In this document: positions 3,686-19,292 of the stretch, piece by piece | Position numbering within the stretch: the stretch's first letter is position 1 | Layout of the letters: every line of letters begins with the position of its first letter | Source of the DNA: a virus | Strand: one strand, 5' to 3' | Length of the DNA: 36,921 nt | Virus record (IMG/VR): IMGVR_UViG_3300045988_076101 | Translations under genes and position numbers: made by a program | Notes under the pieces: model-generated | What the model was told of the DNA's origin: nothing | Databases searched by the model: none | Seen by the model: only the letters and a program-made list of their open reading frames with translations

Positions 3686-3694
3686 GGCTCAAAA

Positions 3695-3782
3695 AGTATC
3701 TTGAAAGTATCTTGAGAGAGTCAGTATCTTGACCAGTATCTTGAAAAATTGAGGGTATTTGACGAGACTTGAGCAGACCTGA
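3695..3782 (+). repeat. attP arm: four perfect AGTATCTTGA direct repeats (3695, 3706, 3723, 3735) plus three degenerate copies (3754, 3764, 3774)
   Basis: Read directly, with spacing of 10-17 bp. The same decamer recurs twice on the other side of the core (3936, 3948). Confidence 0.75.
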
Positions 3783-3932: not shown

Positions 3933-5126
3933 TTAAGTATCTTGAAAAGTATCTTGAGAGCTGAAGGCAGCAAGCACAGATTTTGCGGTATCTTCCGGGC
4001 GATTTTGCATCAGATGTGCGTATATATTCAGCGTGATCGCCGCCGTAGCGTGACCGGCGAGATACTGCGCCGTCTTGACATCTGCGCCGGACAGGATCAG
4101 CTCGGAAATGTATGTATGACGCAGCAGGTGCCGCGTTACATGGAAGTCGAAGGCAACCTTGACATTCCTATACGGAACATCATCCCCGACCTTCAGATCT
4201 TTTGTGATCGTCTTTCCATTGTTCTTATTATCCTTGTAGGTCACGGTGTGAACTTCGCGCACGGCGACGGCCTCCCATTCGTGCCGAAAGGACATGCTTG
4301 TATGAGGCGATCCGTCCCGGCGGCAGCAGACATAGCCGCTGTCGCGCCTGACGCTGCGCAGATGCTCCGTCAGAACGGGCGGTATCGGGACATCACGCCG
4401 CGCTGATTTGCTCTTAAGAGTATCCGTCAGAACAGGCTGATTGTGCTCCCATCGTAGAGCACGGCGGACACGGATGTGAGGAGCCTTGCCGTCGAGGTCG
4501 ACGCAGTCCCATTGCAGCCCCAGCGCCTCCTCCCTACGGAGTCCGGCATACATACAGAGCATGACGAAAGTCAGTATACGCTCCCCTTGCAGCTCTTTAA
4601 TGAGCGCGGTCTGCTGTTCTTTCGTCAGCGCGACCTTTTCGGGTGGCTTGCTGCCGCCGGCTTTAAGCCCCCGACACGGAGAGCGGCTGATCAGCTCGTT
4701 TTCCTCGGCTGCTGCAAACATCATCTTGAGCGTCGTGACGATCTTCTGCTGGCTCGCTTTCGACAGGTTCGCCGCGGCCAGCATTACGGCGCGAATGTTA
4801 TCCGGCTTCACCTCATCGAGACGCTGCTGCCCGATGACCGGGCAGATATGATTATTTATCGCGTTTCTGTGGCTCTGCCGCCCGCTGGAGGACAGCCCGG
4901 CGGTGTTCAGCTCGTACCACTTCGCAGCGTACTCAAATACATACGGCGACTGCGGGTTTTCCATCTCGGCAAACTCCGCCTCTTTTTCGCGCAAGCGCTC
5001 ACGCAGCTCAGCTTTCGTCTTACCGTAAATCGCAAGCCACTTGCCAGTCTGCGGATTTCTTATTTGCTTTTTATAGAGTTGCTTTTCTTTAACCCACGTA
5101 AACTCCGGGCGATTGTTCTTCGGCAT
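3933..5126 (-). CDS. int: Tyrosine recombinase / phage integrase
   Basis: 397 aa. Catalytic-type motifs AGLRREEALGLQW, HLLRHTYISE and GHATAAITLNIYAHL. SD aggtga upstream. Adjacent to the tRNA-like core. Confidence 0.9.
   Translation of the reverse strand: MPKNNRPEFTWVKEKQLYKKQIRNPQTGKWLAIYGKTKAELRERLREKEAEFAEMENPQSPYVFEYAAKWYELNTAGLSSSGRQSHRNAINNHICPVIGQQRLDEVKPDNIRAVMLAAANLSKASQQKIVTTLKMMFAAAEENELISRSPCRGLKAGGSKPPEKVALTKEQQTALIKELQGERILTFVMLCMYAGLRREEALGLQWDCVDLDGKAPHIRVRRALRWEHNQPVLTDTLKSKSARRDVPIPPVLTEHLRSVRRDSGYVCCRRDGSPHTSMSFRHEWEAVAVREVHTVTYKDNKNNGKTITKDLKVGDDVPYRNVKVAFDFHVTRHLLRHTYISELILSGADVKTAQYLAGHATAAITLNIYAHLMQNRPEDTAKSVLAAFSSQDTFQDT
3936..3957 (+). repeat. attP arm on the integrase side: two AGTATCTTGA repeats (3936-3945, 3948-3957)
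   Basis: Identical decamers in the same orientation as the four at 3695-3744. They overlap the last integrase codons (..QDTFQDT*). Confidence 0.7.
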
Positions 5127-10542: not shown

Positions 10543-10908
10543 ATGATCAAATGCGACGCTATGAAGCTCAACCCGCGCGGCCATGTGGTAGCCGAGGGCG
10601 GCCCTTTGCAGATTCTTTCAGAGGCAAAGCTCTTGTTCTGTGAACTTATTAATCGCGAGAAGCTTTCTCCCGTTGCGGCGCGCTTCGCAGTAGAGGCGGC
10701 TATAGAGGTATGCAAGCTCGGCAACAGAGAGCTCAGCTTTTCAGAATACTCCGCCGCTTGTGATATCGCCGAGAAAAGAGTCGGATTCGACTGGAGCAAG
10801 TTCGTCGAAGAATGCACCGGCACAGCTTTCCCCGGACGCACCGCTGGTAAGGACGACGGCGCGCCGACGGGCGACCGCTCGGTCGAGGTCTACGTTATCA
10901 AGCTCTGA
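10543..10908 (+). CDS. Hypothetical protein (121 aa)
   Basis: SD aaggagg upstream. Its stop codon is the first triplet of the 55-bp repeat. Confidence 0.55.
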   Translation: MIKCDAMKLNPRGHVVAEGGPLQILSEAKLLFCELINREKLSPVAARFAVEAAIEVCKLGNRELSFSEYSAACDIAEKRVGFDWSKFVEECTGTAFPGRTAGKDDGAPTGDRSVEVYVIKL

Positions 10909-10960
10909 GCGCTTTGGACCCTGCGGCATCGGGAACGGTGCCGCATATCGAGAGCACTCG
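10906..10960 (+). repeat. 55-bp intergenic element copy 1 (tgagcgctttggaCcctgcggcatcgggaacggtgccgcatatcgagagcactcg)
   Basis: Matches 12036-12090 at 54 of 55 positions. Contains the hairpin TGCGGCA-10 nt-TGCCGCA (10922-10945). Confidence 0.9.
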
Positions 10961-10989: not shown

Positions 10990-11280
10990 ATGTTTGAGAA
11001 CAAGTATGTAATCGTCCGCGGCGATCGCTCCGGCGTATTTGCCGGGCATCTCAAGAGCAAGGAGGGCAGAGAGGTCACGCTGACCGACTGCCGCCGCATC
11101 TGGTATTGGGACGGTGCAGCCAGCATATCCGAGCTTGCCAACATAGGCACCAAGAAGCCCCAGTCCTGTAAGTTCCCCGCACCGGTCGCCGAGATCTGTA
11201 TAACGGACGCGATCGAGATCATCCCCTGCACCGAGGCCGCAGAGGCGAGCATCAAGGCGGTTCGCGTATGGACAGCTTAA
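10990..11280 (+). CDS. Conserved phage protein of unknown function (96 aa)
   Basis: SD aaaggagg. The sequence KYVIVRGDRSGVFAGHL...RRIWYWDGAASISELA resembles a recurrent Firmicute-phage family whose name I do not recall. Confidence 0.6.
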   Translation: MFENKYVIVRGDRSGVFAGHLKSKEGREVTLTDCRRIWYWDGAASISELANIGTKKPQSCKFPAPVAEICITDAIEIIPCTEAAEASIKAVRVWTA

Positions 11281-12038
11281 CAGTTCAGGAGTTCCTGAAG
11301 GTCGAATTTAACGGCGACGGCTACGGCTCCGGCGACGGCTACGGCTCCGGCGACGGCTACGGCTCCGGCGACGGCTCCGGCTCCGGCTACGGCGACGGCT
11401 CCGGCTCCGGCGACGGCTCCGGCGACGGCGACGGCTCCGGCTACGGCTACGGCGACGGCTACGGCTCCGGCGACGGCTCCGGCTCCGGCTACGGCTCCGG
11501 CTCCGGCTACGGCTACGGCTACGGCTCCGGCTCCGGCTACGGCGACGGCTCCGGCGACGGCTCCGGCTACGGCTTAAAGAGTCTCTGTGGAGAACCTGTC
11601 TATATGATCGACGGTGTGCCGACGATCATCACCGGGCTCCGCGGCTCTGTCGCGATGGGGTTTATCGTGATGACCGACCTGTCGAAGCGCAAGACATTTG
11701 TCGTCAAGGGCGGCGGAAAGTTCGCGCACGGTGAGGATCTCCACGCAGCTCAGGCAGCGCTGGAGGAAAAGCTTTTTGACGATATGCCCGTCGAGGAGAA
11801 GCTTGAAGCGTTCCGGGAGCAGTTTACACCGGGCGAGGCTTACACCGTCGCGGACTTCTATGACTGGCATCATCGCCTCACGGGCAGCTGCACGCAGGGG
11901 CGCGACGCCTTCGCGCAGGATCATGAGCTCAGCATGAACGACGCCATGACTCCGGAGGAGTTCATCGACCTGACTAAGGACGCATTTGGCGGCCGGATCA
12001 TCCGCCAGCTTGCGGAGCACTACGGTATTGATCTGTGA
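11268..12038 (+). CDS. Protein with an 87-residue (Gly-X)n tract (X = Asp/Tyr/Ser) and a conserved C-terminal domain of unknown function
   Basis: ATG 11268 overlaps the upstream stop. The C-terminal domain has the motif WHHRLTGSCTQGRDAF. Its stop is the first triplet of 55-bp repeat copy 2. Confidence 0.7.
   Translation: MDSLTVQEFLKVEFNGDGYGSGDGYGSGDGYGSGDGSGSGYGDGSGSGDGSGDGDGSGYGYGDGYGSGDGSGSGYGSGSGYGYGYGSGSGYGDGSGDGSGYGLKSLCGEPVYMIDGVPTIITGLRGSVAMGFIVMTDLSKRKTFVVKGGGKFAHGEDLHAAQAALEEKLFDDMPVEEKLEAFREQFTPGEAYTVADFYDWHHRLTGSCTQGRDAFAQDHELSMNDAMTPEEFIDLTKDAFGGRIIRQLAEHYGIDL
11313..11573 (+). repeat. In-frame hexanucleotide tandem repeat built from only four codons (GGC + GAC/TAC/TCC)
   Basis: 261 nt read directly. 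Every odd codon is GGC and every even codon is GAC, TAC or TCC. Confidence 0.95.
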
Positions 12039-12090
12039 GCGCTTTGGAACCTGCGGCATCGGGAACGGTGCCGCATATCGAGAGCACTCG
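12036..12090 (+). repeat. 55-bp intergenic element copy 2
   Basis: One mismatch to 10906-10960. Lies immediately upstream of the SD of the replisome-organiser gene. Confidence 0.9.
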
Positions 12091-12109: not shown

Positions 12110-12868
12110 ATGGCTACAGGCGCATTATGCCGAAAGCCCGGATACTGGGCAGTCCTTCCCGCAAGGGTACGGTATGACGAAGAGCTGCGCCCCAATGCGA
12201 AGCTCATTTATGCAGAGATCACGGCGCTTGCGGACAGCACCGGTTTTTGCTGGGCGACAAACAAGTACCTGAGCGAGCTTTTCGGGCTGTCCAAGAAGAC
12301 CGTCAGTGATCTGATCGGGACGCTTGAGAAAAAAGGCTACATACAGATCGAGGTCGTTCGCGACGAAAAAGGCGCGGTTTCAGACCGAAAAATCTACGTC
12401 GACCGCGTGAGTGTCGTAGTGCCTGACCCTATCCCTAAAAATGGGGATAGGTATCCCCAAAATAACGGATACCCTATCCCCAAAAATGGGGAAGAGAATA
12501 ATATATATATTAACAATAACCCCCCTATATCCCCCCAGAGGGATGATGTGTGTGTTTCTGAACCGAAGCATAAGCCGGAGCGCTTCACCAAGCTCTGGAG
12601 CTTCTACCCGCACTCCAAGCGCGGCAGCAAGCAGCGGGCTATGAGGGCATGGGACAAGCTCAAACCATCGGACGAGCTGATCGACACCATCGCCAAGGCG
12701 CTCTTGCGGCAGCTCCGGACGGACGAATGGAGCCGCGGCATAGGGGTGCCGCACCTCAGCTCCTACCTCAACGGGCGGCTCTGGCTCGACGCCGAGGAGA
12801 TCGACGAGGCGGAGCCTGCGGCGATGTTCGAGACTGACGACGTGGAGGTCTTGCCGTTATGGACGTGA
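12110..12868 (+). CDS. Replisome organiser / replication initiator-like protein (N-terminal winged-HTH, HTH_36-like)
   Basis: SD gaggagga upstream of ATG 12110. AKLIYAEITALADSTGFCWATNKYLSELFGLSKKTVSDLIGTLEKKGYIQIE. Directly upstream of and overlapping dnaB. Confidence 0.7.
   Translation: MATGALCRKPGYWAVLPARVRYDEELRPNAKLIYAEITALADSTGFCWATNKYLSELFGLSKKTVSDLIGTLEKKGYIQIEVVRDEKGAVSDRKIYVDRVSVVVPDPIPKNGDRYPQNNGYPIPKNGEENNIYINNNPPISPQRDDVCVSEPKHKPERFTKLWSFYPHSKRGSKQRAMRAWDKLKPSDELIDTIAKALLRQLRTDEWSRGIGVPHLSSYLNGRLWLDAEEIDEAEPAAMFETDDVEVLPLWT
12426..12520 (+). promoter_or_regulatory. Candidate origin of replication inside the organiser gene: two 22-bp iterons, one degenerate copy and an A/T-rich stretch
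   Basis: accctatccc(t/c)aaaaatgggga at 12426-12447 and 12471-12492. Partial copy gtatccccaaaataacgga at 12451-12469. gaagagaataatatatatattaacaataac at 12491-12520, in an otherwise GC-rich genome. Confidence 0.5.
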
Positions 12869-14227: not shown

Positions 14228-14419
14228 ACGAAGATCGGAGACAAGATTCGGTTTATCCCCTCAGCATGGACACAGTTCAGCGACGTAAGTTCCCTCAGCT
14301 CCTACGGCGTCAAGGGTGACGTCGAGGGCGAGATCGTCGAGATCAACTGGGCGCACCGGTGGTACAGAGCACGGTACCAGGCGGGCGGCGCGACACTTTA
14401 CGAGTCATTCAAATTTTAA
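14228..14419 (+). CDS. Probable small protein (..KIGDKIRFIPSAW...YESFKF) lacking any canonical start codon; ACG at 14228 sits where ATG is expected
   Basis: The frame is open over 14222-14416 and has GC3-rich, coding-like codons. Strong SD aggaggtg at 14213-14220. It fills the 234-nt gap between dnaB and parA. No ATG, GTG, TTG or CTG occurs in frame. Confidence 0.4.
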   Translation, partial: TKIGDKIRFIPSAWTQFSDVSSLSSYGVKGDVEGEIVEINWAHRWYRARYQAGGATLYESFKF

Positions 14420-14448
14420 GCAAAATCAGAGTCTGGAGGACCACAACG

Positions 14449-15180
14449 ATGAGAACAACCGCGATAATCAACCTCAAGGGCGGCGTCGCAAAGACGACGA
14501 CAGCCCTGAACATGGCCGCGATACTGGCCAAGGACTACAAGCAGCGCGTCCTGTTAGTGGACGCGGACAGCCAATGCAACTGCACCGAGTTTTTCCAGCG
14601 CGACGCGGTGCACCCCGGCACCCTCGCCGATATGCTGCGCGGCCTCGCGCCGTGCATCGAGCACAGCCGTTTTGACGGCGTCGACCTCCTTCCGGGAGAC
14701 GACAGCCTGATGGACCTCGACCTGACGAAGATCGAGACCGGCAGCGCCTCCGCCGTGTGCCTGCGTGAGCTGACCGCGGAGCTGGGCGACAGGTACGACC
14801 GGATGATCATCGACTGCCCGCCGGCGTTCAATGCGGCTTCTGCCGCGGCGCTGGTGGCGGCGGACGAGGTCATCATCCCGATCAAACTCGATGCGTTCAG
14901 CCTGCGCGGGATGGCGAACATCATGCAGCAGGTCAGCAACATGCGCAAGATCAACGACAGCCTCACCGTTGCCGGCATACTGCCGACGATGTGGTACAAG
15001 TCAGACAACATCATTGAGGCCGAGAAGATGCTGCGCGAGTTCGGGCTCCCGGTGCTGCCGCATGTTCGGCGCACGAACAAGGTCGACGACATGACCTTTG
15101 CACAGGAGCCGCTTGTTATCAGCTCGCCGAAGAGTGCGGCGGGCGTCGATTACCGCCGCGTCGTCGCGGCGCTGATGTGA
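14449..15180 (+). CDS. parA: ParA/Soj-type partition ATPase
   Basis: SD tggagga upstream of ATG 14449. Deviant Walker A IINLKGGVAKTTTALN, then VLLVDADSQCN. Confidence 0.85.
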   Translation: MRTTAIINLKGGVAKTTTALNMAAILAKDYKQRVLLVDADSQCNCTEFFQRDAVHPGTLADMLRGLAPCIEHSRFDGVDLLPGDDSLMDLDLTKIETGSASAVCLRELTAELGDRYDRMIIDCPPAFNAASAAALVAADEVIIPIKLDAFSLRGMANIMQQVSNMRKINDSLTVAGILPTMWYKSDNIIEAEKMLREFGLPVLPHVRRTNKVDDMTFAQEPLVISSPKSAAGVDYRRVVAALM

Positions 15181-15192
15181 GGAGGTGCGGTC

Positions 15193-16659
15193 ATGGGATT
15201 CGATTTAGCATCGGTGCTCAAGAATGTGCCCGATTCGGGCACAAATGACGGCCGTGAGCGCATCGAGTACATAGGGCTCGACAAGCTGCACGACGACCCG
15301 AATAACTTCTACTCCCTCGACGGCATCGAGGAGCTTGCCGAAAACATCGAGTTTGCGGGGCTCCAGCAGCCCGTCCGCGTCCGCCGCGATGCGGAGCACA
15401 GCGGCGAGTACATCATCGTCAGCGGCCACCGCCGCACGGCGGCGATGCGCAAGATTGTCGAGGACGGCAACAAGGCCTTTGAGACGGTGCCCTGCATCGT
15501 CGAGGCCGAGGGCGGCAGCGAGGCGCTGCGCGAGCTGCGCCTGATCTATGCCAACTCCGACACCCGCCGGATGTCCTCCGCTGATATCTCGAAGCAGGCC
15601 GAGCGCGTCGAGGCGCTGCTCTACCAGCTCAAGGAGGAGGGCGTTGAGTTCCCCGGCAGGATGCGCGACCACGTCGCCGAGGCCTGCAAGGTGAGCAAGT
15701 CGAAACTGTCCCGCCTGAAGGTGATCCGCGACAAGCTCGCGCCGGACATTTACGCCGGGTACTATGAAAAGGGCAAGCTGCCAGAGGACACGGCCTATAC
15801 GCTCGCTAAGCTTCCGGTCGGCGTCCAGCGTGACATTGTTGACCGCGCGACGCGGGATGGGCGGCAAAACATCCAGTATCTTTACGCGGCCAAAGTCGAA
15901 GATCAGGGCAAGGACATCGCGCGTTTCAGCAAAATGGCCTGCCGCTGCGAGCAGGGCGGAATCTGTATCAATGTTCCAAACCTGATGGATAAACTCTATG
16001 ACACTCGCGGATGGCGAGGAGATACTCACTGCGGCTCCGGCTGCTGCTACGACTGCGATGAGCTTGCGACCTGCTCAAAATGCTGCTCACGCATGGCGGC
16101 AGTCAAGGCGCAGAGAAAAGCCGAGATAAAAGAGGCCAAAGCCGCGGAAACTGCGGCACAGGCCGAACGCGACATGCCAAAGGTCGACGCGCTGAGGCTC
16201 CTCTGGAACCGGATGGGCGAGGCCTGCAAACGGGCAGGCGTTGATTATACTGAGGTCTGCTCCGAGGCCGACATTTACTCCCCGTTGCCGCCCAAGGACG
16301 CGACCGCGCTGCTTAACGGCGCTGGCAAGCTTGAGGTCAGCTGCCGCCCACCGTTCGGCTACGTCGTGAGCCTCCGTGATATCAAAGTTCTCGTCAAGCT
16401 GGCCGATCTGCTCGGCTGCTCGCTGGATTATCTCTTCGGCCGCGATGTGCCCGAATCGGGCACCGGCACGGCGGAGCCGAAGTGGCAGACCGGGGAGCCG
16501 CCGGAGGATGGCGAGTACGTTGTCTGGGCTGAAAGTCCGGACGAGGAAGCAGGATATACAGATATATCCGTTTATGAAAATGGCAGCTGGTGCGGCTACG
16601 GTTCCGCTGGGAATGCATATAGGGTCGTCGGCTGGTGGCCGATACCGCCGGAAGTGTAA
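15193..16659 (+). CDS. parB: ParB-like multi-domain protein (ParB/Srx N-terminal domain, HTH, Cys-rich cluster, XRE-like helix fragment, DUF551-like C-terminus)
   Basis: IIVSGHRRTAAM (GxRR box). CRCEQGGICINV...HCGSGCCYDCDELATCSKCC. LADLLGCSLDYLFGRD. The C-terminal YVVWAES...VVGWWPIPPEV. Confidence 0.75.
   Translation: MGFDLASVLKNVPDSGTNDGRERIEYIGLDKLHDDPNNFYSLDGIEELAENIEFAGLQQPVRVRRDAEHSGEYIIVSGHRRTAAMRKIVEDGNKAFETVPCIVEAEGGSEALRELRLIYANSDTRRMSSADISKQAERVEALLYQLKEEGVEFPGRMRDHVAEACKVSKSKLSRLKVIRDKLAPDIYAGYYEKGKLPEDTAYTLAKLPVGVQRDIVDRATRDGRQNIQYLYAAKVEDQGKDIARFSKMACRCEQGGICINVPNLMDKLYDTRGWRGDTHCGSGCCYDCDELATCSKCCSRMAAVKAQRKAEIKEAKAAETAAQAERDMPKVDALRLLWNRMGEACKRAGVDYTEVCSEADIYSPLPPKDATALLNGAGKLEVSCRPPFGYVVSLRDIKVLVKLADLLGCSLDYLFGRDVPESGTGTAEPKWQTGEPPEDGEYVVWAESPDEEAGYTDISVYENGSWCGYGSAGNAYRVVGWWPIPPEV
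15225..15243. repeat. Palindrome family copy 4 (tGTGCCCGATTCGGGCACa), inside parB codons (..NVPDSGTN..)
   Basis: Read directly. Confidence 0.85.
16447..16463. repeat. Palindrome family copy 5 (GTGCCCGAATCGGGCAC), inside parB codons (..DVPESGTG..)
   Basis: Read directly. Same reading phase relative to the palindrome as copy 4. Confidence 0.85.
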
Positions 16660-18509: not shown

Positions 18510-18569
18510 AAATCTTAATTAAACATTGCGGTCTATGGCCATGGGGCAAAGGACGTCAGGAGTATGTAC

Positions 18570-19292
18570 ATGGCTTACCGCAAAAAGATCATATCGGCCG
18601 GGCCGCTGGTCAAGGAGATCATATATCCGTATCGCTCAGGCGGCAGCAGCTCAAACGGCCGGCGGCGCACCGGGACAAGCTCGGAAGCGCAGCGCCGGAT
18701 GAACGCTATCTATTCGTGGCAGAAACTTGAGCTGCTGCTCGCGGCGAACCTCGTCAAGGGCGACGTCGTCGGGTGCCTGACCTTCGACGACTATCACCTC
18801 CCGGAGACCCGCGAGCAGGTTCGGAATAAATTCAAGTGGTTTCTTGATAAGCTCCGGGCAGCGCGTGAGGAACGCGGACAGAATCTCGTCATGTTCTGGT
18901 CGATTGAGCATCTGCACGGCGAGGGGCGCTGGCATATTCACATAGCCTGTAACGCGACCGGTAACGACTACGAGGAAATACTTCGGCTATGGGGGCAGGG
19001 CGAGTGTGAGTTCAACGCGCTGCGCGTCGATAAGAAAAAGAACTATGAGACCTTGGCCCGGTACATGGCCAAGGAGGAACGGGACAAGATAGGGCAGCGC
19101 TCTTGGAGCTACACCCGCAACGCTAAGAAGCCGGAAGTCGAGAGCTTCTCCGTGCGGGAGTTCACGCCGCTGCGCGTGCCGAAGGACACGACAGTGTTCG
19201 AGGACGTCCGCAGCCGCGGCGAATGGCAGTACATCAAATACGCTTATAACAACGCGCTTAAGGTTCGGCGGCACCGCAGACGCCGGTCGTAG
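18570..19292 (+). CDS. HUH-superfamily rolling-circle replication initiator-like protein
   Basis: SD aggag 7 nt upstream of ATG 18570. Motif 1 VVGCLTFDD, motif 2 GRWHIHIACN (H-u-H) and motif 3 TLARYMAKE (Y..K), in the canonical order and spacing. Confidence 0.55.
   Translation: MAYRKKIISAGPLVKEIIYPYRSGGSSSNGRRRTGTSSEAQRRMNAIYSWQKLELLLAANLVKGDVVGCLTFDDYHLPETREQVRNKFKWFLDKLRAAREERGQNLVMFWSIEHLHGEGRWHIHIACNATGNDYEEILRLWGQGECEFNALRVDKKKNYETLARYMAKEERDKIGQRSWSYTRNAKKPEVESFSVREFTPLRVPKDTTVFEDVRSRGEWQYIKYAYNNALKVRRHRRRRS

What the first reader, a model, noticed from the sequence alone, without database searches (positions are those of the whole stretch)
11313..11573. 87-residue strictly alternating (Gly-X)n tract (X = Asp/Tyr/Ser) encoded by only four codons
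Directly seen:
- 261 nt in which every odd codon is GGC and every even codon is GAC, TAC or TCC.
- The peptide reads GDGYGSGDGYGSGDGYGSGDGSGSGYGDGSG...GSGYG.
- Using a single codon per amino acid implies a recent expansion by slippage or recombination of hexanucleotide units. It also predicts length polymorphism between isolates.

Inference on function:
- The composition ([GS]Y[GS] motifs plus Asp) recalls low-complexity, phase-separating or silk-like alternating-Gly sequences.
- An acidic array could also act as a nucleic-acid mimic.
- The tract is fused to a conserved C-terminal domain (..WHHRLTGSCTQGRDAF..).
- The gene sits in the replication module, between the two copies of the 55-bp element.
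- I know of no described function for such a tract in a phage replication region.
Basis: partly seen in the sequence, partly recalled or inferred. Interest (0 to 1): 0.7.

Follow-up and report, generated by a model that had tools for sequence, protein, structure and literature searches.

The report
Hypervariable Gly-X repeat protein, phage cassette
The tract is a real, translated six-base microsatellite encoding a floppy, acidic, tyrosine-rich Gly-X chain, and it is the fast-changing half of an undescribed two-gene cassette (a DUF6948 protein plus a Gly-X repeat protein) found in phages of at least three bacterial phyla.

Summary
Window 11313-11573 is 87 codons: GGC x44 alternating with TCC/TAC/GAC.

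**What it is**
- It is the middle of a 256-aa protein: a 15-aa N-peptide, then (Gly-X)43, then a 154-aa C-domain.
- The C-domain has no Pfam, PDB or fold match.

**How it varies**
- Near-identical relatives carry tracts of 8-100 residues, always differing in 6-nt steps.
- Cultured Pectobacterium phages with 100% identical flanks differ (73 vs 67 aa).
- About one contig in five breaks inside the tract.

**Main new result: the constant partner is the upstream DUF6948 gene, not the C-domain**
- In 78 of 78 informative DUF6948 loci and 16 of 16 GenBank phage records, a Gly-[Ser/Tyr/Asp] repeat ORF follows DUF6948.
- Its ATG usually lies 13 nt inside the DUF6948 stop region.
- In Proteobacteria and Chlorobi phages that ORF is the repeat alone. 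It is unannotated in phiPLPE and annotated in the wrong frame in CV-1-33.

**Codon use**
- One codon per residue holds family-wide: GGC dominates 105 of 121 arrays, even at 28% GC.
- This reflects concerted evolution and probably selection, not merely a recent expansion.

**Translation and function**
- Translation is supported by stop-codon depletion, the in-frame C-domain and degenerate arrays that keep the composition.
- The tract is predicted disordered.
- Biochemical function is unknown. It is not a VIPR array, a DGR target or an artefact.

The parts
10906..10960 (+). 55-nt direct repeat, copy 1. It starts at the TGA stop of the preceding gene and contains the hairpin TGCGGCA-N10-TGCCGCA. 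It is the left boundary of the two-gene cassette.
   Evidence: Both copies are also present in relatives L005, L006, L008, L009, L014 and L015.
10990..11280 (+). DUF6948 gene (96 aa), the invariable upstream partner of the repeat gene. Its last 13 nt overlap the ATG of the repeat gene (ATGGACAGCTTAA).
   Evidence: Pfam PF22253, E = 1.9e-28. The start overlaps by 13, 4 or 16 nt in 70 of 70 complete loci. A Gly-X ORF follows in 78 of 78 informative DUF6948-anchored loci and in cultured phages.
11268..12038 (+). Gly-X repeat protein gene, 256 aa including the stop codon position.
   Evidence: There are 1037 homologous clusters at 90% identity and 778 at 50% identity.
11268..11312 (+). N-terminal peptide MDSLTVQEFLKVEFN. 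Family consensus: M-[DE]-x-[LIV]-x-x-x-[IV]-x-x-[FW]-[LI]. A short helix is predicted.
   Evidence: Conserved pattern. AlphaFold2 gives a helix at residues 6-10 and mean pLDDT 73 for residues 1-10.
11313..11573 (+). The finding itself: (GGC-KMC)43 + GGC, a hexanucleotide array encoding (Gly-[Asp/Tyr/Ser])43-Gly. It is predicted disordered and hypervariable in length and in unit order.
11574..12035 (+). C-terminal domain, 154 aa: a five-stranded beta meander plus six helices. Invariant residues are D115, H154, K168, H201, T205, S207, C208, G211 and R212, within the motifs FAHG and WHxxLTGSCxxGR. It is lineage-specific (gut Clostridia-type phages).
   Evidence: AlphaFold2 pLDDT 88.7. No PDB fold match (best E = 0.13). 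No PDB sequence match. No Pfam, PADLOC or PHROG family. Invariant columns. Absent from cultured phages.
12036..12090 (+). 55-nt direct repeat, copy 2 (one mismatch to copy 1). It is the right boundary of the cassette and lies directly upstream of the replication-initiator gene.

Best explanation
**What it is**
- The tract is an in-frame hexanucleotide microsatellite.
- It is translated into an intrinsically disordered, acidic, tyrosine-rich (Gly-X)n chain. Family-wide composition: Gly 48%, Ser 18%, Tyr 15%, Asp 11%; essentially no Lys, Gln, Pro or Ala.
- It belongs to the second gene of a mobile, translationally coupled two-gene phage cassette: DUF6948, then the Gly-X repeat protein.

**How the DNA behaves (shown)**
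- The array gains, loses and reshuffles 6-nt units by replication slippage or unequal recombination, far faster than its flanks accumulate substitutions.
- The same turnover homogenises the codons, so each array uses one codon per residue.
- GGC is strongly preferred for Gly whatever the genome GC content.

**How the protein works (inferred)**
- The repeat chain is the functional core.
- It acts as a multivalent, length-tolerant low-complexity partner of the small beta-rich DUF6948 protein: many equivalent G-Y/S/D units, with Tyr as contact residues and Asp keeping the chain soluble.
- In this phage lineage the chain additionally tethers a 154-aa C-terminal domain, which has a conserved His/His/Cys/Asp/Arg site (a likely catalytic or metal-binding site), to that assembly.

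**My estimates**
- Translated, disordered and slippage-driven: about 0.9.
- Functionally coupled to DUF6948: about 0.8.
- Physical multivalent binding or scaffold mechanism: about 0.3.
For: **Translation**
- The C-domain has no conserved start of its own and is always in frame behind the tract.
- The ATG overlaps the DUF6948 end in 70 of 70 loci.
- In-frame TAA/TAG inside arrays: 1 observed against about 13 expected.
- Degenerate arrays with mixed codons and broken periodicity keep the G/S/D/Y composition (L037, L039-L049, L108).

**Disorder**
- pLDDT is 22-26 over residues 14-101, while the C-domain scores 85-94.

**Slippage and hypervariability**
- All length differences are multiples of 6 nt.
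- L008 and L009 have flanks 99.25% identical but tracts of 62 and 68 residues in a different order.
- Phages Ymer and Amona have 380-nt flanks 100% identical on both sides but proteins of 73 and 67 aa.
- Variant GGT units cluster locally in Sabo.

**Link to DUF6948**
- 78 of 78 informative DUF6948-anchored loci carry the tract ORF: 51 with the C-domain, 15 repeat-only, 12 cut by a contig end.
- 16 of 16 INPHARED records show the same arrangement, including Pectobacterium, Ralstonia, Vibrio, Iodobacter and Chlorobiaceae phages, where the ORF is the repeat alone.
- P0378 is a natural fusion of DUF6948 with the C-domain.

**Mobility**
- The genomic context varies between phages.
- 55-nt direct repeats bracket the cassette here.
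Against: - No experiment or complex model shows that DUF6948 binds the repeat chain.
- The strong GGC preference is a nucleic-acid or translation-level signal that a purely protein-level account does not explain: 105 of 121 arrays overall, and 171 of 177 Gly codons in 27-29% GC phages against an 11% background.
- The high Asp content argues against simple FUS-like self-association.
- The tract-DUF6948 fusion suggested by the phrog_18306 profile coordinates was not seen in any of the 159 DUF6948 ORFs I examined.
Confidence: 0.5

Rival explanations
1. Nucleic-acid-level element. The periodic GGY triplets of the array (GGY-NN-Y)n are read in the RNA or DNA by a protein, most plausibly the adjacent DUF6948. 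This would resemble TRAP binding (G/U)AG-NN repeats, or Vipr proteins binding GGY/NN vrRNAs. The array would then be a cis-regulatory or guide-like element, possibly as well as being coding.
For: - GGC is kept against mutational bias in 27-29% GC phages, while the X-codon third base drifts with GC content.
- One Gly codon accounts for at least 90% of units in 108 of 121 arrays.
- The array always lies immediately 3' of DUF6948.
- Tract RNA is much less self-structured than shuffled controls (z = +6.2), so it would be accessible.
- There is a precedent for a conserved-GGY/variable-NN code in phages (bioRxiv 10.64898/2026.04.26.720920).
Against: - The period is 6, not 5, and the window has no YNNGG arrays.
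- Three dinucleotides (TC, TA, GA) make up 90% of NN, giving very low information content.
- In-frame stop codons are depleted.
- The C-domain is translated through the array.
- Arrays that are homogeneous for GGG (L156, L190) exist, and degenerate arrays with mixed codons also exist.
- No in-window target scores above shuffled-order controls.
- The C-domain model has no RAMP/Cas fold hit.
- DUF6948 shows no sequence similarity to Hfq or TRAP.
Confidence: 0.12
2. Passive spacer. The tract is a tolerated, selectively near-neutral microsatellite expansion that serves only as a flexible linker or tail with no function of its own. Its composition would reflect only what slippage of an ancestral unit can generate.
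For: - Length varies from about 8 to 121 residues with no conserved order.
- S, Y and D codons interconvert by single transversions: TCC-TAC-GAC.
- AlphaFold2 sees no structure.
Against: - The tract is retained in every informative lineage across three phyla, and it exists as a stand-alone ORF whose only content is the repeat.
- Composition is maintained after the DNA repeat has decayed.
- Ala, Pro, Lys and Gln are nearly absent, although each is one mutational step away.
Confidence: 0.13
3. Polyanionic decoy. The acidic Gly/Asp/Tyr chain acts on its own as a nucleic-acid mimic or sponge against a host DNA-binding or defence protein. DUF6948 would act only as a chaperone or co-factor.
For: - Net charge is about -0.1 per residue with almost no basic residues.
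- The cassette behaves like a mobile accessory 'moron' inserted at different genome positions.
- It is an early-region gene in temperate phages.
Against: - Charge density is low compared with known DNA mimics and is carried on a disordered chain.
- There is no PADLOC or anti-defence family hit.
- Asp content varies widely between arrays, with some nearly Asp-free (for example P0118 with X = S/Y only).
Confidence: 0.08
4. Assembly artefact or targeted (DGR-type) diversification.
For: - Many metagenomic contigs break inside the tract: 22 of 102 and at least 12 of 80.
- Variation is concentrated in two positions of each unit, giving an NNY pattern that superficially resembles the AAC-to-NNC changes of DGRs.
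Against: - The same arrays occur in independently sequenced cultured phages, including phiPLPE from 2008.
- Hundreds of independent assemblies keep the frame.
- There is no second (template) copy within 2 mismatches of (GGCAAC)2 outside the tract.
- No reverse transcriptase was found among the ORFs scanned.
- Only 3 of 16 NN values are used.
Confidence: 0.02

Closest known systems
In-frame coding microsatellites / VNTRs that evolve by slippage (for example collagen-like Gly-X-Y repeats in phage tail-fibre and prophage proteins)
   Same: - Head-to-tail units whose length is a multiple of 3.
- Rapid in-frame length polymorphism between near-identical genomes.
- Codon homogeneity through concerted evolution.
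- Frequent assembly breaks.
   Different: - The unit is 6 nt (a dipeptide Gly-X), not 9 nt.
- The product is not structural and not in a virion gene.
- It is always paired with a DUF6948 gene.
- The repeat can be the entire protein.
EBNA1 Gly-Ala repeat of Epstein-Barr virus (from my own knowledge, not tested here)
   Same: - A viral alternating Gly-X tract of variable length.
- Markedly non-random synonymous codon use.
- Both the peptide and the mRNA sequence have been proposed to act in cis.
   Different: - X is Ala there, and Ser/Tyr/Asp here.
- The codons there are purine-rich (GGA/GGG/GCA), whereas here they are GGC + YMC.
- There is no homology.
- A bacterial-virus context with a dedicated partner gene.
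Low-complexity [G/S]Y[G/S] domains (FUS LC) and the Gly-rich disordered linker of bacterial SSB (from my own knowledge)
   Same: - Disordered Gly/Ser/Tyr-rich chain with regularly spaced Tyr (13 GYG in 87 residues here).
- Length and order are poorly conserved while composition is conserved.
- Peptide-linker-domain architecture, as in SSB but mirrored.
   Different: - Strict period-2 alternation.
- 11-14% Asp and no Gln/Asn/Pro.
- Encoded by a perfect microsatellite.
- No evidence of condensates.
VIPR vrRNAs (bioRxiv 10.64898/2026.04.26.720920)
   Same: - Phage-encoded tandem arrays with an invariant GGY and variable NN in each unit.
- Located next to a small two-gene locus.
- Hypervariable between relatives.
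   Different: - Pentanucleotide, 9-16 units, non-coding, with a structured 3' tail and a RAMP-like protein.
- Here: hexanucleotide, 5-60 units, translated, NN almost limited to TC/TA/GA, and no RAMP detected.
Bombyx fibroin (GAGAGS/GAGAGY)n. This is also the source of database names such as 'fibroin heavy chain-like', 'Lamprin' and 'Sulfur globule protein' for family members.
   Same: Strict Gly alternation with Ser and Tyr at X.
   Different: - Ala, which is essential for silk beta-sheet stacking, is only 0.5% here.
- Asp is abundant.
- No strands are predicted.
- The database names are composition artefacts.

Membership tests
Coding microsatellite / VNTR evolving by slippage | Head-to-tail tandem units whose length is a multiple of three | tested here: met
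   Tandem Repeats Finder gives period 6 and 44 copies. Every unit is GGC + KMC.
Coding microsatellite / VNTR evolving by slippage | Copy-number polymorphism between otherwise near-identical genomes, in whole units | tested here: met
   - Protein lengths of 182-252 aa, all even, at 94-99% C-domain identity.
- L008 versus L009.
- Ymer versus Amona, with identical flanks.
Coding microsatellite / VNTR evolving by slippage | Length heterogeneity within one population (reads) | not testable with these tools
   No reads are available. The only indirect hint is that contigs end inside the tract.
DUF6948 + Gly-X repeat cassette (defined here) | DUF6948 gene immediately upstream on the same strand, with the repeat ORF's start overlapping its end | tested here: met
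   - In the window the overlap is 13 nt.
- 70 of 70 complete loci overlap by 13, 4 or 16 nt.
- 78 of 78 informative DUF6948-anchored loci carry the tract.
FUS-like / prion-like low-complexity domain | Dense [G/S]Y[G/S] motifs in a predicted disordered region | tested here: met
   13 GYG motifs in 87 residues. pLDDT is 22-26.
FUS-like / prion-like low-complexity domain | Uncharged polar composition (Gln/Asn/Ser/Gly/Tyr, few charges) | tested here: not met
   Asp is 14% here and 11% family-wide. Net charge is about -0.1 per residue, and Gln is 0%.
FUS-like / prion-like low-complexity domain | Forms condensates or hydrogels | not testable with these tools
   This needs purified protein.
Silk-fibroin-type (GX)n beta-sheet repeat | X dominated by Ala/Ser, allowing sheet stacking | tested here: not met
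   Ala is 0.5% of tract residues, while Asp + Tyr are 26%. AlphaFold2 predicts no strands.
VIPR (Vipr protein + vrRNA) | Tandem pentanucleotide YNNGG (or NNNGG/YNNNG) repeats, 9-16 units | tested here: not met
   Units are hexanucleotides, 43 of them. No array of four or more YNNGG units occurs anywhere in the window. Definition taken.
VIPR (Vipr protein + vrRNA) | Non-coding RNA with a conserved structured 3' tail | tested here: not met
   - The array is in frame between a conserved N-peptide and the C-domain.
- In-frame stops are depleted.
- There is no Rfam hit.
VIPR (Vipr protein + vrRNA) | Adjacent RAMP-fold (RRM + G-loop + thumb) protein | tested here: inconclusive
   The C-domain model has no Cas or RAMP match in the PDB.
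VIPR (Vipr protein + vrRNA) | NN positions hypervariable over all dinucleotides and matching DNA targets | tested here: not met
   TC, TA and GA make up 90% of NN. No in-window match exceeds shuffled-order controls at skips of 0-4. External targets were not searched.
Diversity-generating retroelement target | Reverse transcriptase plus a template repeat differing at adenines | tested here: not met
   No second copy of the array or of a GGCAAC-type template. No RT among the 17 ORFs scanned with Pfam.
Collagen-like phage repeats | Gly every third residue (G-X-Y)n | tested here: not met
   Gly is every second residue.

The most novel reading that the evidence does not exclude
The DUF6948 / (GGY-NN-Y)n cassette could be a dual-use element. 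The array would be translated, but its periodic GGC triplets would also be read at the RNA or DNA level by oligomeric DUF6948, making it a hexanucleotide cousin of TRAP-RNA or VIPR GGY/NN recognition. Array length and NN order would then tune regulation or targeting, which would explain why GGC resists AT mutational pressure while the neighbouring wobble positions do not.
Probability: 0.1. Interest if true: 0.9.

Novelty: new variant of a known kind. Interest (0 to 1): 0.62.

Why it matters
- **Spread and neglect.** The cassette occurs in thousands of phage genomes: 3628 DUF6948 clusters and 1037 C-domain clusters at 90% identity. Hosts include gut Clostridia, Beta- and Gammaproteobacteria and Chlorobi. 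It is nevertheless unnamed, missing or annotated in the wrong frame in reference genomes, and no paper I could find mentions it.
- **A natural evolution experiment.** It shows very fast, in-frame protein-length evolution. A whole small protein can consist of a microsatellite, with composition conserved, order free, and codons homogenised to a single, GC-independent choice.
- **Tractable questions.** Cultured carriers exist (Pectobacterium phages of the Ymer group, Iodobacter phiPLPE, Ralstonia NK-7, Vibrio IKEMa6-1). Two questions are therefore directly testable:
  - What does a minimal Gly/Ser/Tyr/Asp disordered chain do in a bacterial cell?
  - Why is GGC enforced?
- **Practical consequences.** The tract is a systematic assembly breakpoint and a gene-calling trap in viromes, and it could serve as a strain-typing marker.

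Tried and rejected
- **Family searches on the repeat protein and its neighbours**
  - Pfam and PHROG hits on the repeat protein were composition artefacts: TrAA12 (23 bits, below cut-off) and the mid-region of phrog_18306.
  - PADLOC returned nothing.
  - NCBIfam returned only a 23-bit local resemblance of the FAHG region to a class II aldolase model, far below its 203-bit cut-off. I treated this as a motif-level lead at most.
- **C-domain structure and sequence**
  - PDB sequence searches with two profiles found nothing.
  - Foldseek against the PDB gave a best E of 0.13.
  - Foldseek against BFVD found only family members.
- **DUF6948**
  - The PDB profile search was negative.
  - hhalign against the C-domain, Hfq and TRAP was negative.
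- **Other sequence searches**
  - Megablast of the locus against INPHARED: no match.
  - GTDB genome scan: only two Eubacteriales MAG contigs.
  - Rfam: no family in the window.
- **DGR:** no template and no RT.
- **VIPR:** the period is wrong, there are no pentamer arrays, and no self-targets were found.
- **Origin of replication in the tract:** unlikely, because the iterons lie inside the initiator gene at 12426-12492.
- **Tract-DUF6948 fusion** implied by the phrog_18306 profile coordinates: not found in 159 DUF6948 ORFs.
- **Literature searches** for DUF6948, for the peptide strings, for phage glycine-rich repeats and in the phiPLPE and Ymer papers: no description of the tract.
Full report
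**1.

Window 11313-11573 is 87 codons. All 44 odd codons are GGC, and the even codons are TCC (18), TAC (13) and GAC (12). Tandem Repeats Finder calls a period-6, 44-copy array at 11311-11574.

In the rest of the window GGC is only 58% of Gly codons. TCC is only 25% of Ser codons, with AGC commoner at 37%. The codon monotony is therefore far beyond chance: roughly 4e-11 for Gly alone by my arithmetic.

The tract sits in ORF 11268-12038 (+), 256 aa. That protein has three parts:
- a 15-residue N-peptide, MDSLTVQEFLKVEFN;
- (Gly-X)43-Gly;
- a 154-residue C-terminal domain.

The longest exact internal repeat is 47 nt, so an assembler can cross the tract. The exact unit count in this assembly cannot be certified without reads.

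**2. Genome context**

The window is a complete temperate siphophage. It contains:
- an integrase, an Ltp lipoprotein and XRE regulators;
- an excisionase-like HTH protein, followed by an unknown gene;
- a 96-aa DUF6948 gene (10990-11280), followed by the repeat gene;
- a DnaD/HTH_36-type replication initiator (12110-12868) and DnaB;
- ParA and a ParB-like gene;
- terminase, portal, capsid and tape-measure genes.

A 55-nt direct repeat (10906-10960 and 12036-12090, one mismatch) brackets DUF6948 plus the repeat gene. Both copies are present in close relatives. Three 22-nt iterons inside the initiator gene (12426-12492) are the likely origin, so the tract is not the origin.

**3. Length polymorphism is massive and fast**

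The C-domain alone retrieves 1037 protein clusters. The 85 full-length clusters at 92-99% identity range from 182 to 252 aa. Every one of these lengths is even, so they differ by whole Gly-X units. The tract is the only part that differs.

At the DNA level:
- Sixteen close relatives (15 IMG/VR, one GTDB) carry tracts of 14-100 residues with unrelated unit order.
- L008 and L009 have flanks 99.25% identical but tracts of 62 and 68 residues.

The same holds in cultured, plaque-purified Pectobacterium phages. Ymer and Amona are 100% identical over 380 nt on each side, yet their repeat proteins are 73 and 67 aa with a different internal order. Across eight isolates the protein is 53-89 aa.

Contigs often end inside the tract: 22 of 102 C-domain-anchored IMG/VR/GTDB contigs and at least 12 of 80 DUF6948-anchored contigs. 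This is what a repetitive and probably heterogeneous locus does to short-read assembly. The artefact explanation is excluded by the independent isolates and by the universal preservation of the reading frame.

**4. The tract is a family feature, and the single-codon rule is old**

A profile search of 1.84 billion representatives finds 778 clusters at 50% identity. Of the top 150, 113 show the same architecture, and most of the others are N-truncated calls. That architecture is:
- a short N-peptide, M-[DE]-x-[LIV]-x-x-x-[IV]-x-x-[FW]-[LI];
- (Gly-X)n;
- G-[IL]-K-S-x-N-G leading into the domain.

Across 121 unique arrays from all loci:
- 108 use one Gly codon for at least 90% of units. That codon is GGC in 105, GGG in 2 and GGT in 1.
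- The first two bases of the X codon are TC, TA or GA in 90% of units.
- Ser is never AGY.

In 27-29% GC phages GGC is 171 of 177 tract Gly codons against 11% in the background. In the same phages the X codons have switched to TCT/TAT/GAT.

So 'one codon per residue' does not mark a recent expansion. It is maintained by continuing turnover. Variant GGT units cluster locally in Sabo. Because the neighbouring wobble position follows GC content while the Gly wobble does not, there is probably also selection for GGC.

I could only model possible reasons:
- GGC arrays have the weakest predicted pairing to the anti-Shine-Dalgarno sequence: mean -3.2 kcal/mol against -6.4 to -8.0 for the other Gly codons.
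- The tract RNA is much less self-complementary than dinucleotide shuffles (z = +6.2).
- The missing fourth K x M combination, GCC (Ala, 0.6% of units), would create the palindrome GGCGCC.

**5. The tract is translated**

Four lines of evidence support translation:
- The C-domain has no conserved start of its own. The Met in 'YMIDG' is specific to the window's group. The domain always follows the tract in frame.
- The ATG overlaps the end of the DUF6948 ORF by 13, 4 or 16 nt in 70 of 70 complete loci, the signature of translational coupling.
- Inside arrays, purine-ending variants occur in GA, TC and AA units (25 of 1931). TAA/TAG occurs once in 1029 TA units against about 13 expected. This comparison is not corrected for relatedness between arrays.
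- Lineages whose arrays have decayed (mixed Gly codons, broken alternation) still encode G/S/D/Y-rich segments (L037, L039-L049, L108).

AlphaFold2 on the full-length protein gives:
- pLDDT 22-26 for residues 14-101, that is, disordered;
- 85-94 for most of the C-domain;
- about 73 for the N-peptide, with a short helix at residues 6-10.

**6. The conserved partner is DUF6948, not the C-domain**

The C-domain has no hit in 50,697 GenBank phage records apart from two human-faecal contigs. DUF6948 hits cultured phages of Pectobacterium/Dickeya, Ralstonia, Vibrio, Iodobacter and Chlorobiaceae. In each of these, an ORF beginning inside the last codons of DUF6948 encodes a short N-peptide plus (Gly-[Ser/Tyr/Asp])n and nothing else:

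| Phage | Repeat ORF | Annotation status |
|---|---|---|
| Pectobacterium phage Sabo | CDS0035, 73 aa | annotated |
| Ralstonia phage NK-7 | 137 aa | named 'fibroin heavy chain-like protein' |
| Vibrio phage IKEMa6-1 | stand-alone repeat ORF | record has no annotation |
| Iodobacter phage phiPLPE | MSRLVNNKN + (GX)n, then a terminator | not annotated |
| Chlorobiaceae phage CV-1-33 | true frame starts ATGGACGGTATAA, the same -13 overlap as in the window | gene25 annotated in the wrong frame (MAMAMAL...) |

Sampling from the DUF6948 side alone gives the same answer. Of 80 IMG/VR loci, 78 have the repeat ORF: 51 with the C-domain, 15 repeat-only and 12 cut by a contig end. The other two contigs end within 60 nt of DUF6948.

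One representative (P0378) is a natural fusion of DUF6948 with the C-domain and has no tract.

The cassette's neighbours differ between phages:
- replication, SSB, resolvase and methylase genes in gut phages;
- tail genes in Sabo;
- small terminase in NK-7;
- the genome end next to HNH/RecE in phiPLPE.

It therefore behaves as a mobile accessory unit. The 55-nt repeats flanking it in the window fit that picture.

**7. The C-terminal domain**

- **Structure.** AlphaFold2 gives pLDDT 88.7: a five-stranded beta meander followed by six helices.
- **Fold searches.** There is no PDB fold match (best E = 0.13, TM 0.22). BFVD returns only family members.
- **Family searches.** There is no PDB sequence match and no Pfam, PHROG or PADLOC family.
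- **Weak lead.** NCBIfam gives one 23-bit local resemblance of the FAHG strand-helix region to a class II aldolase model.
- **Conserved residues.** In an alignment at 34-58% identity the invariant residues are D115, H154, K168, H201, T205, S207, C208, G211 and R212 (full-length numbering). Cys208 sits at the N-terminus of a predicted helix. This looks like a catalytic or metal site, but I could not inspect the geometry.

**8. Mechanism: shown and inferred**

Shown:
- a translated, disordered, hexanucleotide-encoded Gly-X chain;
- very rapid in-frame unit turnover with codon homogenisation;
- obligatory, translationally coupled pairing with DUF6948 across phyla;
- an optional C-domain.

Inferred:
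- The repeat chain is the functional core.
- It works with DUF6948, most simply as a multivalent, length-tolerant ligand or scaffold, with Tyr as contact residues, Asp for solubility and Gly/Ser as spacers.
- DUF6948's invariant R-x-x-W-x-W patch would suit binding of aromatic or glycine-rich peptides, but it would equally suit RNA.
- In this phage the chain also tethers the C-domain.

I put about 0.9 on translation, disorder and slippage, about 0.8 on functional coupling to DUF6948, and about 0.3 on the binding or scaffold mechanism.

**9. The nucleic-acid-level rival**

A 2026 preprint describes VIPR systems. These are phage RAMP-like proteins guided by RNAs made of YNNGG pentanucleotide repeats, with invariant GGY and hypervariable NN. 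The resemblance to GGC-NN-Y is striking, and the GC-independent GGC is the kind of signal an RNA reader would leave.

Membership nevertheless fails on every testable criterion:
- the period is 6, not 5;
- there are 43 units rather than 9-16;
- the array is coding;
- NN is restricted to three values;
- there are no pentamer arrays or self-targets in the window;
- there is no RAMP-like fold in the C-domain.

GGG- and GGT-homogeneous arrays also exist. A dual-use reading, with DUF6948 reading GGY triplets in the manner of TRAP, is not excluded. I give it about 0.1.

**10. Verdict**

- **The unit.** The tract is better described as the hypervariable core of an undescribed, widespread two-gene phage cassette than as an odd linker in a replication protein.
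- **Novelty.** By kind it is a coding microsatellite that encodes a low-complexity disordered protein. That kind is known, but the Gly-X dipeptide unit, the fixed DUF6948 partnership, the repeat-only proteins and the GC-independent codon choice are new variants of it.
- **Function.** The function remains unknown.
- **Interest.** I rate interest as moderate to high, because the cassette is common, mis-annotated and open to experiment in cultured phages.

Noticed in passing
window 10906-10960 and 12036-12090: 55-nt direct repeat (one mismatch). Each copy begins at the TGA stop of the preceding gene and contains the hairpin TGCGGCA-N10-TGCCGCA. The two copies bracket the DUF6948 + repeat-gene cassette, and both are also present in six close relatives. 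It could be a cassette boundary, a recombination site, or an RNA processing or attenuation element.
   Followed up: partly
window 12426-12492: Three 22-nt iterons (ACCCTATCCCCAAAAATGGGGAT) inside the replication-initiator gene. This is probably the phage origin, in a lambda-O-like arrangement.
   Followed up: no
window 3933-5126 (-), 14359-16659 (+), 18564-19292 (+): The same genome carries a tyrosine integrase, a ParA/ParB-like partition pair and a Rep_ORF2/G2P-like protein. This is an unusual combination of integration, partition and rolling-circle-type functions.
   Followed up: no
window 3693-3715, 3722-3744, 3935-3957: Short 11-12-nt repeats (core AGTATCTTGA) clustered at the end of the integrase gene. 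They may be arm-type integrase binding sites or part of attP.
   Followed up: no
L103 (Iodobacter phage phiPLPE NC_011142) 1173-1410; L107 (Chlorobiaceae phage CV-1-33) 1767-2018: Errors in public annotation. The phiPLPE repeat ORF is not annotated at all. CV-1-33 gene25 is called in the +1 frame (MAMAMALAMA...) instead of the Gly-X frame. Elsewhere, family members are named 'fibroin heavy chain-like', 'Sulfur globule protein', 'Lamprin' or 'colicin E9' purely from composition.
   Followed up: yes
IMG/VR loci L007, L010-L012, L024, L026, L030-L033 and others; L116, L117, L126, L128, L151 and others: About one in five metagenomic contigs that carry the cassette ends inside the repeat tract. The tract is a systematic assembly breakpoint and so may define artificial 'genome ends' in virome catalogues.
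   Followed up: partly
P0378 (266 aa, representative library): A natural fusion of DUF6948 to the C-domain with no Gly-X tract and a diverged motif (LTGAC, with WHH replaced by WFKN). This is a Rosetta-stone link between the two proteins.
   Followed up: partly
window 11574-11750 (C-domain residues 2-60): A weak local match (23 bits, E = 6e-5, far below the 203-bit cut-off) of the beta-hairpin/FAHG/helix region to NCBIfam aldolase model PRK08660. In class II aldolases the corresponding His is a zinc ligand (from my own knowledge).
   Followed up: no
L177/L180 and L156/L190: Rare lineages whose arrays are just as homogeneous but are built on GGT (61 of 61 units) or GGG (35 of 36 units) instead of GGC. 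Homogenisation is therefore general, while GGC is preferred rather than obligatory.
   Followed up: partly
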